40,001 nucleotides of DNA from Escherichia coli (GTDB lineage: Bacteria > Pseudomonadota > Gammaproteobacteria > Enterobacterales > Enterobacteriaceae), in assembly GCA_011601165.1 (NCBI GenBank), contig GCA_011601165.1_4547.1. One strand, 5' to 3'. This document shows positions 1,653 through 3,943 of this stretch, one piece after another. A model generated the notes under the pieces. The model did no database searches. It was not told the DNA's origin and worked only from the letters and a program-made list of their open reading frames with translations. A program made the position numbers and the translations under genes. How positions within the stretch are numbered: position 1 is the first letter of the stretch; each line of letters starts with the position of its first letter.

Positions 1653-1880
1653 TTAAATCATACTCATTAGGACGTATCCCTCAGCGATGTCACCAACGTC
1701 AGCCACATGGACAACCTTACGTGCTACCTGTTGTCCAGTATATCCGTTGTCCCACTCGTTCAGGATAAGCCAGTCGCCAACCTTAAAGTCCCGGTCGTTA
1801 AGTCTCAGCTCTGCTGTCTTTAGACCTAGTTGTACTGGACCAAAGTGCTGGCGGTGAATCTTCAGGTTATGCGCTGCCAT
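1653..1880 (-). CDS. small ASCH/PUA-like (DUF3850-type) protein, 75 aa; not present at this position in T7
   Basis: ORF MAAHNLKIHRQHFGPVQLGLKTAELRLNDRDFKVGDWLILNEW...; ATG overlaps gp11 stop (TAATG); motif pattern recalled from DUF3850/ASCH family. Confidence 0.5.
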   Translation of the reverse strand: MAAHNLKIHRQHFGPVQLGLKTAELRLNDRDFKVGDWLILNEWDNGYTGQQVARKVVHVADVGDIAEGYVLMSMI

Positions 1881-2446
1881 TAGTCCCTCCCGATGTCGGA
1901 CATCATGTTGTAGCGACCAGTATCCATCTCGTATTCCATGACCTGCTGATAGAGTTCTGCTTCCTGCTCACGAAGGTACAGTTCAGACTCTTGGCTACCG
2001 AAGAACTTAGCGTTGAACTCACGGCTAGCCTTGGTAACGATGTAGTCCCTGAAGACCACTGGCATCTCAGAGAATGGTTTCATCTCAACAAGCTCTACCG
2101 TTATAGGGTCGGTGAAAGTTGTTGACTGAGTGGACAGGTCGTACAGGTATCCACCCATGTTGCTGTAGTAGCTGGTGGCCCCAGCAGTCATTACACGAAG
2201 GTATGACGGTAGGAATCGAATCCTGTTGTCTTGGACATCAGGTATCAGGACAGCAGCTTCGTTGATGTTAAAGTTCCAGCCTTTAGCTTGTACCTGACGA
2301 TTGACACGATGCAGGATACGTTGAGCGTTCGAGACGTCAGCGTTACCTTCGTCAAGCTGTAGGACTGCTGGTTCACCGATAGCAGCTAACATATCATTGA
2401 TGGCATCTAAGTCATCGTTAGCATTCAGTGGAATGTATTGAGCCAT
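1880..2446 (-). CDS. 11: tail tubular protein A (T7 gp11)
   Basis: 188 aa, resembles T7 gp11 as recalled (…LAAIGEP…GWNFNI…YIVTKASREFN…MEYEMD); SD GGAGGG upstream. Confidence 0.85.
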   Translation of the reverse strand: MAQYIPLNANDDLDAINDMLAAIGEPAVLQLDEGNADVSNAQRILHRVNRQVQAKGWNFNINEAAVLIPDVQDNRIRFLPSYLRVMTAGATSYYSNMGGYLYDLSTQSTTFTDPITVELVEMKPFSEMPVVFRDYIVTKASREFNAKFFGSQESELYLREQEAELYQQVMEYEMDTGRYNMMSDIGRD

Positions 2447-2460
2447 AGGCCCTCCTTAAG

Positions 2461-2499
2461 CAAAAAACCCCTCAAGCACCCGAAGGCACCCAAGGGGTT
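2461..2499 (-). terminator. Tphi-like intrinsic terminator for phage RNAP between genes 10 and 11
   Basis: mRNA sense CCCCTTGGGTGCC-TTCG-GGTGCTTGAGGGG followed by TTTTTTG; resembles T7 Tphi as recalled. Confidence 0.8.
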
Positions 2500-2503
2500 T
2501 CAA

Positions 2504-3816
2504 TTAGTTTGTGAAAGATACGTTGAAGGAACGCACAGGCGAACCGTCATACTCAACAATCACTAGACCTTCCACGCCAGAGGTGGCCTTGAAGTAGAGA
2601 CTGTTGGTTCTACGGGAGTAACTAACACCATCAGGCGTAGCAACATCAAGCAGCGACCAGTCGGTCACATCTGAAAGCTCAGGGAAGTCAACCTTCAAGC
2701 TGGTTCCCACCGTAGAACTATACGTCTCTAAGGTAGGACCCTCGGTAGAGAGGGCCTTAAAGGTCGTTAACCCGCTGACGCTGCTGTGAAAACCAGTGCG
2801 CCTGCTGCTTCTGGACGCAGCCCACCGTGACCCATAGCGTACTTACCAACAATCAGGTCGCCCTGAGCATCGACGTCACGGTCACGTTCCAGCGCCAAAT
2901 CACGCAGCTTAACAGTGCCTACGGCAGATCGGTGAGAGAACAGGCCCACAACGTTGTCCAGCGCAACTTTAACATCACCAGTAGCAGTAGCCGGGAAGGC
3001 GTGCTTCTGACCGGAAGCGATAGTGATACCATCATCACCACGAGTCTCACCAGCACCGCCCTGAGTCAAGTGTGGAACTTCAACAACCACGAAGCCCATT
3101 ACGTTACGGATGTTACCAGTCTCTGGATCAATCAGCGCAGCATAGTTAGCAGCGTTTGGCATCAGAGCCGCGAGGATCGCAGAGTAGTTATCAGGCGTGG
3201 TGTAGAAGTAACGGTCGCCAGCAGGAACGTAGTTGGAGGTCAGCTTCGCACGCGCAATGGTCAATTGACCGATGATTGCTTCACCCAGTTTAGCTGGGGT
3301 ATCGAGGGCAGCTTTCGTACCAACTTCCAGTACGGATGCGGTGCCTAGACCAGCAATGTTCTCGTTGGATGCGGACGGAAGGTTACACAGGATAGCCATT
3401 TCAGCTAAAACCGCACCATCGGCAGCGATAGCCAGAGCTTCACCTAGCTGGTTGGAATACTCACCGGCCACGTCATAGTGGTTCATCGCGTCTTCAATAT
3501 CGAAAATCATCACATCGGCAGTCAGCAGACCATCAATGGTAATCACTTTCTCGGTATGTTTGATACCTTTACGCTTATCGGACAGTCGCTCACCGGGAGC
3601 CAGATACACACCAGAGGTGCGACCCATGACCGGGAACTGAGCAGACTTACCGTTCTGAATGGTACGGACAATATGCTTGTCAGCCGTTACAGAGCGGCGA
3701 GTGAATGCGGTCAGGACTTCACCAGCAAAGACCTTCAGGAACAACGCCAGAGCGTCGGAACTAGATTTGCCTTTACCTTGGTCTGTACCAATTTTCTGAC
3801 CCGGAACGTTTGCCAT
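2504..3816 (-). CDS. 10B: minor capsid protein 10B by programmed -1 frameshift at GGTTTTC (2788-2794), extension ends at 2504
   Basis: -1 frame is open from 2842 to 2504 with no stop; slippery heptamer G GTT TTC sits 8 codons before the 10A stop; same heptamer is used by T7 gene 10 as recalled. Confidence 0.65.
2767..3816 (-). CDS. 10A: major capsid protein 10A
   Basis: 349 aa, resembles T7 gp10A as recalled (…KVITIDGLLTADV…EDAMNHYDV…KYAMGHGGLRPEAAGA…); SD AGGAGA 8 nt before ATG. Confidence 0.95.
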   Translation of the reverse strand: MANVPGQKIGTDQGKGKSSSDALALFLKVFAGEVLTAFTRRSVTADKHIVRTIQNGKSAQFPVMGRTSGVYLAPGERLSDKRKGIKHTEKVITIDGLLTADVMIFDIEDAMNHYDVAGEYSNQLGEALAIAADGAVLAEMAILCNLPSASNENIAGLGTASVLEVGTKAALDTPAKLGEAIIGQLTIARAKLTSNYVPAGDRYFYTTPDNYSAILAALMPNAANYAALIDPETGNIRNVMGFVVVEVPHLTQGGAGETRGDDGITIASGQKHAFPATATGDVKVALDNVVGLFSHRSAVGTVKLRDLALERDRDVDAQGDLIVGKYAMGHGGLRPEAAGALVFTAASAG

Positions 3817-3920
3817 ATGATAATTCTCCTATTCAATTGAAAGATAAAGTTTATTACTTACTGTACGCCCAATCCGTATGGACTGAAGTAATAGGGGAAA
3901 ACCTTGAGTCTGCCTCTTGG

Positions 3921-3943
3921 TCTCCCTATAGTGATAGTTTAGT
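3921..3943 (-). promoter_or_regulatory. phage RNAP promoter (phi10 equivalent)
   Basis: ACTAAACTATCACTATAGGGAGA on minus strand, +1 G near 3926, upstream of capsid gene. Confidence 0.85.

What the first reader, a model, noticed from the sequence alone, without database searches (positions are those of the whole stretch)
2504..2842. Programmed -1 ribosomal frameshift generating capsid 10B
The -1 frame relative to 10A is open from 2842 to 2504. The heptamer G GTT TTC (minus strand, 2794-2788) lies 8 codons before the 10A stop. The frameshift product would carry about 95 extra residues and terminates just before the Tphi hairpin.
Basis: partly seen in the sequence, partly recalled or inferred. 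Interest (0 to 1): 0.4.

Follow-up and report, generated by a model that had tools for sequence, protein, structure and literature searches.

The report
T7-type capsid gene 10 frameshift
This is the well-known ribosomal slip near the end of the major capsid gene of T7-like phages, which here adds a small immunoglobulin-like domain to a minority of capsid subunits; it is real but ordinary, and near-identical phages already have it annotated.

Summary
The window is a reverse-complemented Kayfunavirus (K1F-like T7 relative), 97% identical to phage CLB_P1.

- **Frame and site.** The capsid gene 10A is 3816..2767 (-). The -1 frame is stop-free from 2842 to the TAA at 2506-2504. The T7 slip site G_GTT_TTC lies at 2794-2788 in the right register.
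- **Product.** The shift would give a 437-aa 10B of 46 kDa, against 349 aa and 36 kDa for 10A. That is 94 trans-frame residues, a net gain of 88.
- **Terminator.** The tail ends 3 nt before a Tphi-like terminator hairpin (2501-2464).
- **Comparative support.** All 55 related loci with a tail or a tail remnant keep GTTTTC. All 16 loci with no tail lack it, 13 through synonymous Val-Phe codons. The tail evolves under purifying selection in the -1 frame. This holds even upstream of any possible start codon, and no start or Shine-Dalgarno site is conserved.
- **The tail itself.** It has a 20-residue linker and a seven-strand Ig-like beta-sandwich. It has no Pfam family and belongs to PHROG 7473 ("unknown function"). 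It is unrelated in sequence to T7/K1F's helical tail and to T3's Big_2 tail, and behaves as a swappable cassette.
- **Status.** GenBank already annotates the joined product in phage Peacock (95% identical). Production of the protein was not tested here. Interest is low.

The parts
2767..3816 (-). Gene 10A, major capsid protein (349 aa, 36.3 kDa), stop TAA at 2769-2767
   Evidence: ORF list. Pfam Gp10A-like 1e-105. PDB T7 10A 2xvr at 3.5e-148 and 9vvq at 3.9e-213.
2788..2794 (-). Slippery heptamer G_GTT_TTC (Val342-Phe343 of 10A), identical to the T7 gene 10 shift site
   Evidence: Sequence and frame. Conserved in all 55 relatives that have a tail or tail remnant; absent in the 16 without one. 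T7 site documented in PMC1635266 and PMC5009743.
2504..2788 (-). Trans-frame (-1) part of 10B: 94 codons plus TAA (2506-2504). Nucleotide 2788 is read twice. 10B = join(3816..2788, 2788..2504), 437 aa, 46.0 kDa.
   Evidence: Translation. dN/dS 0.09-0.5 in this frame against 29 relatives. Same length as the joined CDS annotated in phage Peacock. Molecular weights.
2729..2788 (-). Linker, tail residues 1-20 (HSSVSGLTTFKALSTEGPTL). The first 22 nt (2788-2767) overlap the end of 10A.
   Evidence: AF2 pLDDT below 50 for residues 1-16. Purifying selection, pN/pS 0-0.37, although no start codon lies upstream of it.
2507..2728 (-). Ig-like beta-sandwich domain, tail residues 21-94, seven strands. PHROG 7473; no Pfam family.
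   Evidence: AF2 pLDDT about 90. Foldseek best PDB hit is the lambda gpV C-terminal Ig-like domain 2L04, TM 0.56. BFVD best hit is 'Minor capsid protein' of Pectobacterium phage PP81, 1e-8. PHROG 7473 at 1.6e-35. Pfam none.
2464..2501 (-). Tphi-like intrinsic terminator hairpin with a T-run. Its 5' arm contains CCCC (2497-2494), the motif reported to affect T7 gene 10 frameshifting.
   Evidence: Fold dG -25.2 kcal/mol, z = -3.9. Terminator scan. Near-identical hairpin in K1F and many relatives. CCCC statement in PMC5009743.
2690..2765 (-). Candidate conserved RNA domain: a long-range helix GACCUUUAAG (2765-2756) with CUUGAAGGUU (2699-2690), enclosing local hairpins. It starts 22 nt 3' of the heptamer. 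Its role is unproven.
   Evidence: RNAalifold and pair counts on 27 window-type (class A) sequences: 90% of cells paired, 3 of 10 pairs change on both sides, 0 of 500 shuffles reach this, slid controls 16-68%. Present in the window's MFE fold.
2679..2778 (-). Outer stem seen only in the window's own subclade: UCAG-GGG (2778-2771) with UCCCUGA (2685-2679). It brings the base of the structure to 9 nt after the heptamer.
   Evidence: MFE -43.4 kcal/mol, z = -3.4 for the 110 nt after the heptamer. Not conserved outside the closest relatives.
3921..3933 (-). Core of the phage-RNA-polymerase promoter upstream of gene 10 (CACTATAGGGAGA); context only
   Evidence: Sequence. Single match in the window. 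T7/T3 phi10 promoters are annotated at the same relative position.

Best explanation
A programmed -1 ribosomal frameshift of the T7 gene 10 type.

Most ribosomes translating the capsid mRNA read through G_GUU_UUC and stop 7 codons later, giving 10A. A minority slip back one nucleotide while tRNA-Val (GUU to GGU) and tRNA-Phe (UUC to UUU) occupy the P and A sites. They continue for 94 codons and stop 3 nt before the Tphi terminator.

The product, 10B (437 aa), is the whole HK97-fold capsid protein minus its last 6 residues. It is extended by a flexible linker of about 20 residues and an Ig-like beta-sandwich of about 74 residues. By analogy with T7, T3 and K1F, it would co-assemble into the shell at low copy number with the domain on the outside.

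**Shown here:** the frame, the site, their co-conservation, the coding constraint on the tail, the lack of an independent start, and the predicted fold.

**Inferred:** that the shift actually happens, its efficiency, incorporation into virions, and any surface-binding role of the domain.
For: - **Geometry.** The heptamer is in register 8 codons before the 10A stop, and the -1 frame is open through to 2507.
- **Same site as T7.** It is the same heptamer as in T7, where it gives about 10% 10B (PMC1635266; PMC5009743; T7 sequence).
- **Co-occurrence.** All 50 loci with a window-type or T7/K1F-type tail have GTTTTC (48 GGTTTTC, 2 CGTTTTC). So do L028, L064 and three damaged tails. The 16 loci with no tail have GTC/GTA/GTG-TTC (13) or ATC-TTC/GTT-TAC (3) instead.
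- **Coding constraint.** Tail dN/dS is 0.09-0.5. The linker and first beta-strand, which lie upstream of the only candidate start (GTG 2710), are also constrained.
- **No separate start.** No start codon exists in that frame between 2842 and 2710. No start column or SD is conserved among 30 tails. Gene callers give inconsistent fragments of 54-87 aa.
- **Domain integrity.** Strand 1 of the predicted domain (residues 21-26) lies upstream of GTG 2710.
- **Prior annotation.** The joined CDS is already annotated in phage Peacock.
- **Experimental precedent.** K1F's g10b frameshift product carries functional GFP and adhesin fusions (PMC6277420 and PMC13370021).
- **Chance.** 0 of 7193 control -1-frame windows are open for 112 codons.
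Against: - No protein-level evidence was obtained for this phage or, as far as I could find, for any phage with this tail type.
[quoted passage not shown] Most GenBank records call it a separate hypothetical gene.
- No canonical stimulator sits 5-9 nt downstream that is conserved across clades. The conserved helix starts 22 nt downstream, and the closer outer stem is subclade-specific.
- In T7 the heptamer alone gave less than 1% shifting, so efficiency here is unknown.
- Two relatives (L024, L025) have CGTTTTC, which weakens P-site re-pairing.
- The association counts are not phylogenetically independent.
Confidence: 0.9

Rival explanations
1. The tail is an independent small gene ('gp10.1' or a stand-alone 'minor capsid protein'). 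It would be translated from its own start (GTG 2710, 68 aa) and would not be fused to 10A.
For: This is how most GenBank records annotate it (CLB_P1 gp10.1, Dev2 gp10.1, KP32 isolates). The protein databases hold it as 54-87 aa ORFs. PHROG 7473 is an 82-aa family.
Against: - There is no SD-like motif before GTG 2710, and no start column is shared by more than 14 of 30 homologues.
- Called starts differ from record to record.
- The 19 codons upstream of GTG 2710 are under purifying selection in this frame, and no start codon lies upstream of them.
- Predicted beta-strand 1 lies upstream of the GTG.
- The frame is continuous with the heptamer in all 30 homologues, and the heptamer is conserved only where a tail exists.
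Confidence: 0.05
2. The extended product arises from transcriptional slippage of the phage RNA polymerase on the T-run, adding one nucleotide to the mRNA, rather than from ribosomal slippage.
For: One inserted base in the mRNA would also give access to the -1 frame. The site contains T4.
Against: A run of four T is well below the length at which polymerases slip productively (established knowledge; reviewed in PMC5009743). The same heptamer in T7 is classed as a ribosomal X_XXY_YYZ-type site, G_GU U_UUC. The conserved unit is the whole GTTTTC in codon register, not merely the T-run.
Confidence: 0.02
3. The open -1 frame and the heptamer are coincidental or a decaying relic, and no functional 10B is made.
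For: The heptamer alone is not rarer than chance. 10B is dispensable in T7 under laboratory conditions (own knowledge). Some relatives carry damaged tails (L014, L015, L036).
Against: Purifying selection on the tail across Kayfunavirus, Przondovirus and Pectobacterium phages at saturated dS. 455 phage records keep the domain. A confident folded model. The heptamer and tail co-occur. 0 of 7193 control windows are open.
Confidence: 0.02

Closest known systems
Bacteriophage T7 gene 10A/10B -1 programmed frameshift (Condron, Atkins and Gesteland 1991; reviewed in PMC5009743)
   Same: Homologous capsid gene. Identical heptamer G_GUU_UUC in the same register a few codons before the 10A stop. The -1 tail ends just before Tphi. 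CCCC is present in the terminator's 5' arm.
   Different: The T7 tail is 56 residues, helical and basic (…LTPAQEAARTRAANKARKEAELAAATAEQ; PHROG 12582, no Pfam). It is unrelated to the window's 94-residue linker plus beta-sandwich. The terminator is about 290 nt from the site here, against more than 200 nt in T7.
Phage K1F gene10b (type species of the same genus, Kayfunavirus)
   Same: Same genus. 10A about 97% identical in K1F-type loci. Same GGTTTTC. Same Tphi hairpin. The frameshift product has been used experimentally to display GFP and adhesins.
   Different: K1F's tail is the short T7-type helical tail, 44 codons beyond the 10A stop. DNA identity between the window and K1F-type loci collapses about 20 nt after the heptamer and resumes at the terminator, so the tail is a different cassette.
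Phage T3 10B: Ig-like (Big_2) extension made by -1 frameshifting
   Same: A -1 frameshift at the end of gene 10 adds one Ig-like domain of about 85 residues to a fraction of capsid subunits.
   Different: T3 shifts at C_CCA_AAG, not G_GUU_UUC. Its domain is Pfam Big_2 (4e-10). The window's domain has no Pfam hit and no profile-profile similarity to these Big_2 tails (hhalign probability 1%).
Annotated 'minor capsid protein' of phages Peacock (MK903279), Pisces, NS1, Citrobacter CR8, Klebsiella KP32 and Pectobacterium PP81
   Same: The same tail family. Peacock carries the same joined 437-aa CDS with a -1 frameshift note.
   Different: Nothing substantive. Most of those records, unlike Peacock, annotate the tail as a free-standing ORF.

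Membership tests
T7-type gene 10 -1 programmed ribosomal frameshift (10A/10B) | The host gene is a homologue of the T7 major capsid protein gp10A | tested here: met
   Pfam Gp10A-like 1e-105. T7 10A structure 2xvr at 3.5e-148.
T7-type gene 10 -1 programmed ribosomal frameshift (10A/10B) | Slippery heptamer G_GUU_UUC in the 0-frame register near the 3' end of 10A | tested here: met
   2794-2788, read G|GTT|TTC, 8 codons before the stop. Same as T7 (PMC1635266).
T7-type gene 10 -1 programmed ribosomal frameshift (10A/10B) | The -1 frame is open from the site to a stop just upstream of Tphi | tested here: met
   Open 2842..2507, TAA 2506-2504, hairpin 2501-2464.
T7-type gene 10 -1 programmed ribosomal frameshift (10A/10B) | The heptamer is conserved at synonymous positions and co-occurs with a -1 tail | tested here: met
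   55 of 55 loci with a tail or remnant have GTTTTC; 0 of 16 tail-less loci do. The loci are not phylogenetically independent.
T7-type gene 10 -1 programmed ribosomal frameshift (10A/10B) | The tail is under protein-coding selection in the -1 frame and has no start of its own | tested here: met
   dN/dS 0.09-0.5. The region upstream of any start is constrained. No conserved start or SD.
T7-type gene 10 -1 programmed ribosomal frameshift (10A/10B) | A larger capsid protein (10B) is made at roughly 10% and incorporated into virions | not testable with these tools
   Needs SDS-PAGE or MS of virions. Shown for T7 and used in K1F, but not for this tail type.
T7-type gene 10 -1 programmed ribosomal frameshift (10A/10B) | Distal 3' stimulator involving CCCC of the transcription terminator | tested here: inconclusive
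   CCCC is present at 2497-2494. No consistent duplex between the post-site spacer and the terminator region across 17 loci (z from -1.9 to +2.0).
Phage Ig-like domains appended by frameshifting (T3 10B type, Pfam Big_2) | Ig-like beta-sandwich fold of the appended domain | tested here: met
   AF2 gives seven strands at pLDDT about 90. The best PDB hits are Ig-like domains (lambda gpV C-terminal domain at TM 0.56, filamin repeats), but E is only 3e-3.
Phage Ig-like domains appended by frameshifting (T3 10B type, Pfam Big_2) | Sequence membership in Pfam Big_2 | tested here: not met
   No Pfam hit for the window tail or 7 homologues. hhalign against a Big_2 tail alignment gives probability 1%. 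The T3 tail scores 4e-10 as a positive control.
BACON domain (Pfam PF13004 / PF19190) | Significant match to the BACON profile, or reciprocal profile similarity | tested here: inconclusive
   The tail profile hits a BACON-repeat protein, P0036, at 6.7e-13 summed over 5 repeats. hhalign gives probability 46%, E 2e-4, 35% identity over 71 columns. There is no direct Pfam BACON hit and no BACON structure among the top Foldseek hits.
PHROG 7473 (unknown function) | Match to the family profile over its full length | tested here: met
   1.6e-35, tail residues 15-94 on profile positions 2-82 of 82.

The most novel reading that the evidence does not exclude
The trans-frame end of gene 10 may be a plug-in slot. 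Studiervirinae would exchange, by recombination between the slip site and Tphi, at least three unrelated display modules: the T7/K1F helical tail, the Big_2 domain, and this PHROG-7473 beta-sandwich. The window's module would be a BACON-like glycan or mucus adhesin. The frameshift would set its copy number on the capsid, making it a natural counterpart of the BACON and Ig domains that were engineered onto K1F 10B to make it stick to epithelia (PMC13370021). A conserved RNA domain that begins 22 nt after the site could be part of the still unexplained stimulator of gene 10 frameshifting.
Probability: 0.25. Interest if true: 0.45.

Novelty: already known. Interest (0 to 1): 0.18.

Why it matters
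**Annotation.** The tail is filed as 'hypothetical protein', 'gp10.1', a free-standing 'minor capsid protein', or even 'capsid assembly protein' in hundreds of Kayfunavirus, Przondovirus and Pectobacterium phage genomes. Many of these are phage-therapy candidates. PHROGs lists the family as of unknown function. It should be a joined 10B CDS.

**Engineering.** It marks a natural, tolerated site for displaying a folded domain of about 75 residues on the capsid at low copy number.

**Biology.** It adds one more example to the known pattern of Ig-like domains appended to phage structural proteins by frameshifting. It shows that closely related phages carry different modules at this slot. None of this changes current understanding.

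Tried and rejected
- **Pfam on the tail and 7 homologues:** nothing.
- **Sequence search of the PDB with the tail profile:** nothing.
- **hhalign against T3-type Big_2 tails:** no relation.
- **Rfam on 2400-2900 at E <= 1:** only chance-level hits, all below gathering scores.
- **Long-range duplex search.** I tested pairing between the 30 nt after the heptamer and the 10B-end/terminator region in 17 loci, looking for a partner of the terminator CCCC implicated in T7. No consistent or significant pairing was found.
- **RNAalifold over the whole 400-nt region** gave an unconvincing, noisy consensus.
- **The outer stem** that would put a structure 9 nt from the site is confined to the window's subclade.
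- **Local folding 3' of the site is uneven across lineages.** z is -3.4 in the window, -4.1 in Przondovirus and -4.2 in T3, but -0.5 in T7 and -0.1 in L019. No universal stimulator can therefore be claimed.
- **Spurious profile hits.** P0039 and similar proteins match through a repeated 'NNALYF' motif; I discounted them.
- **Primary papers not held in the library:** Condron et al. 1991 (two papers), Sipley et al. 1991, and Scholl and Merril 2005. T7 details therefore rest on PMC1635266, PMC5009743 and my own knowledge.
- **Five extra GenBank loci** added no new clade for covariation.

Full report
**What the window is.** The region is the capsid gene cluster of a T7-like phage, read on the minus strand. 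Megablast of 2400-3900 finds 246 phage records. The best is Escherichia phage CLB_P1 (97%), followed by many Kayfunavirus genomes at 93-95%. The long ORF at 3816..2767 (-) is the major capsid protein: Pfam Gp10A-like at 1e-105, with close matches to solved T7-like capsid proteins. Gene 11 (tail tubular protein A) follows at 2446..1880.

**Checking the observation.**
The 10A frame ends …PEAAGALVFTAASAG*.
- The -1 frame has a stop at 2845-2843 and then runs open from 2842 to a TAA at 2506-2504. The +1 frame is full of stops.
- GGTTTTC sits at 2794-2788 and is read G|GTT|TTC, with GTT eight codons before the 10A stop.
- A -1 shift on this site gives join(3816..2788, 2788..2504), which is 343 + 94 = 437 residues and 46.0 kDa. 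10A is 349 residues and 36.3 kDa.
- Three nucleotides after the 10B stop, a 38-nt hairpin (2501-2464; -25.2 kcal/mol, z = -3.9) with a T-run closely resembles T7/K1F Tphi.
- The heptamer alone is not improbable: 8 in the window against 3.65 expected. The open frame is improbable: none of 7193 control windows of 112 codons in the -1 frame of the window's long ORFs lacks a stop.

**Comparative evidence that the site and tail belong together.** I fetched 80 loci encoding relatives of 10A (97% to 72% amino-acid identity) from IMG/VR, plus T3, T7, K1F and several GenBank phages. Reading the -1 frame past the 10A stop in each sorts them into classes.
- **Class A**, the window's type, has the motif …DVTDWS…RRTNSLYFK… It occurs in 30 loci of Kayfunavirus, Przondovirus (KP32-like) and Pectobacterium phages.
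- **Class B** is the T7/K1F helical basic tail …LTPQQKAARTRAAN…
- **Class C** carries one or more Big_2 Ig-like domains, as in T3.
- **Sixteen loci** have no recognisable tail.
- **Heptamer distribution.** All 50 class A and B loci carry GTTTTC (48 GGTTTTC, 2 CGTTTTC). So do L028, L064 and three loci with damaged tails.
- The 16 tail-less loci lack GTTTTC. Thirteen keep the same Val-Phe dipeptide but encode it as GTC/GTA/GTG-TTC; the other three have ATC-TTC or GTT-TAC. This pattern of synonymous-site conservation tied to the presence of a tail is what a functional slip site predicts. The loci are not phylogenetically independent.
- Class C tails instead have A_AAG two codons before the stop, matching T3's C_CCA_AAG.

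**The tail is coding, and is not a separate gene.**
- Against 29 class A homologues, dN/dS in the -1 frame is 0.09-0.5, even where dS is saturated.
- In the window that frame has no ATG, GTG or TTG between 2842 and GTG 2710. Yet the 19 codons between the 10A stop and that GTG are also under purifying selection (pN/pS 0-0.37 in six within-clade pairs; small counts).
- No candidate start column is shared by more than 14 of 30 sequences. None of the window's candidates has an SD-like motif.
- Gene callers have produced fragments of 54, 63, 64, 68, 75, 83 and 87 aa for the same domain.
- The AlphaFold model places beta-strand 1 (tail residues 21-26) upstream of the GTG.
- I therefore reject the widespread annotation as a free-standing 'gp10.1' or 'hypothetical protein'. 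Phage Peacock (95% identical) already carries the joined 437-aa CDS with a -1 frameshift note.

**What the tail is.**
- AlphaFold2 on a 20-sequence alignment gives a disordered N-terminal stretch (pLDDT below 50 for residues 1-16, strands beginning at residue 21) and a seven-strand beta-sandwich at pLDDT about 90 (mean 80.6).
- Foldseek's best PDB match is the C-terminal Ig-like domain of the lambda tail tube protein (2L04; TM 0.56, E 3e-3). Next come VirB9, filamin repeats and phage N4 capsid decoration.
- In BFVD the only strong hit is 'Minor capsid protein' of Pectobacterium phage PP81.
- Pfam finds nothing. PHROGs places it in family 7473, 'unknown function'. No PDB entry contains it.
- It has no profile-profile similarity to the Big_2 tails. 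T3's tail scores Big_2 at 4e-10 and T7's tail has no Pfam family.
- A profile search of 1.8 billion representatives finds mainly the same small ORFs. It also finds a Bacteroidota-type BACON-repeat protein (6.7e-13 over five repeats; hhalign probability 46%). I treat this as a lead, not a finding.
- tblastn finds the domain in 455 phage records.

**The tail is a cassette.** Window and K1F-type loci are 85-100% identical up to about 20 nt past the heptamer. They are unalignable through the tail and identical again from the terminator on. K1F itself has the heptamer and the short helical tail. This matches the '44 triplets' described when GFP and adhesins were fused to its g10b product (PMC6277420 and PMC13370021). 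The 2016 review by Atkins and colleagues already notes that T3's extension is Ig-like, that T7's is not, and that such domains move around and are sometimes captured out of frame. The window adds a third module to that picture.

**Mechanism and its open part.**
- The shift itself follows the established tandem-slippage model. P-site tRNA-Val moves from GUU to GGU, keeping two of three pairs. A-site tRNA-Phe moves from UUC to UUU. The review lists G_GU of T7 gene 10 as an accepted variant of X_XX.
- What stimulates it is unresolved even in T7. The bare heptamer gave under 1% against about 10% in the phage. A CCCC in the terminator more than 200 nt away is involved 'and remains to be explained'.
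- Here CCCC is present at 2497-2494, 291 nt from the site. I found no consistent pairing partner for it.
- In class A, a long-range helix (window 2765-2756 with 2699-2690) is 90% paired in 27 sequences. Three pairs change on both sides, the ACC/GGU core is invariant at synonymous positions, and both controls are clearly beaten. K1F, which lacks the partner arm, has ACT instead of ACC at that codon.
- The helix starts 22 nt after the heptamer, which is too far for a canonical stimulator. An outer stem that brings the structure to 9 nt is confined to the window's subclade.
- I rate the helix as probably real (about 0.5) and its role in frameshifting as unproven (about 0.15).

**Verdict.** The finding is a correct recognition of a textbook recoding event in a genus where it has already been annotated and exploited. 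I put the confidence that 10B is made by a -1 shift at G_GTT_TTC at 0.9. The increments are the fold of this tail type, its mis-annotation at scale, and the cassette view of the trans-frame slot. Novelty: already known. Interest: low.

Noticed in passing
window 2765-2756 with 2699-2690 (-); alignment A2 columns 36-45 and 105-114: A conserved long-range RNA helix (GACCUUUAAG / CUUGAAGGUU) encloses clade-specific hairpins in the linker-coding region of window-type tails. It is 90% paired in 27 sequences, has 3 covarying pairs, and an ACC/GGU core that is invariant at synonymous sites. Its function is unknown. It starts 2 nt after the 10A stop in every clade.
   Followed up: partly
window 2788-2504 versus L005, L023, L043 and K1F (L092 730-960): The trans-frame tail is a swappable cassette. 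Near-identical 10A genes and Tphi terminators flank completely unrelated tails: a beta-sandwich here and a helical basic tail in K1F-type phages.
   Followed up: yes
L045, L055, L057-L061, L065, L068, L071; T3 = L084 1917-1923: Relatives with Big_2 (T3-type) tails lack GGTTTTC. They all have A_AAG two codons before the 10A stop (T3: C_CCA_AAG). L028 is an exception, combining GGTTTTC with a Big_2 tail.
   Followed up: partly
L056 1233-2466 (IMGVR_UViG_3300034349_000001): One relative has G_GTT_TTT followed by a -1 frame open for at least 405 codons, cut by the contig end. It encodes a Big_2 domain (5e-11) and then about 320 further residues with GDSL/SGNH-like motifs (FEGDSLT, HCGTNNY, DGTHS) that Pfam does not recognise. 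It may be an enzyme displayed on the capsid by frameshifting.
   Followed up: partly
L039 2193-2900 and L062 2193-2888: In two tail-less relatives the -1 frame of 10A runs, with no slippery heptamer, straight through the intergenic region into gene 11 (tail tubular protein A) in frame. This is probably coincidence.
   Followed up: no
L014, L015, L036: Three loci keep GGTTTTC but have disrupted tails. In L014 the domain is replaced halfway by a hydrophobic stretch. In L015 the tail continues in the +1 frame. L036 has a premature stop. These are either sequencing errors or natural loss of 10B.
   Followed up: no
window 1653-1880 (-): A 75-aa DUF3850/ASCH-domain gene (Pfam 1.5e-19) is wedged directly after gene 11; its start overlaps the gene 11 stop. 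Neither the T7/T3 region nor the K1F region shown here has a gene at that spot: in K1F, gene 12 follows gene 11 directly.
   Followed up: partly
tail residues 15-85 (window 2746-2534) versus P0036: There is weak similarity between the tail and BACON repeats of a T9SS-sorted protein: hmmsearch 6.7e-13 over 5 repeats, hhalign probability 46%, shared W and S-R-T-x-S-[IL] motifs. BACON domains were recently shown to make K1F adhere to epithelia when fused to its 10B (PMC13370021).
   Followed up: partly
GenBank records under: The annotation of this locus is chaotic. The tail is called 'hypothetical protein', 'gp10.1', a stand-alone 'minor capsid protein', or 'putative capsid assembly protein' (PP74). 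In vB_EcoP-U8, 10A itself is labelled 'minor capsid protein 10B'.
   Followed up: yes
window 3921-3933 (-): The promoter core CACTATAGGGAGA upstream of gene 10 is the only copy of that 13-mer (up to 1 mismatch) in the 40-kb window. The other phage promoters must therefore differ from it by more than one base in this core.
   Followed up: no
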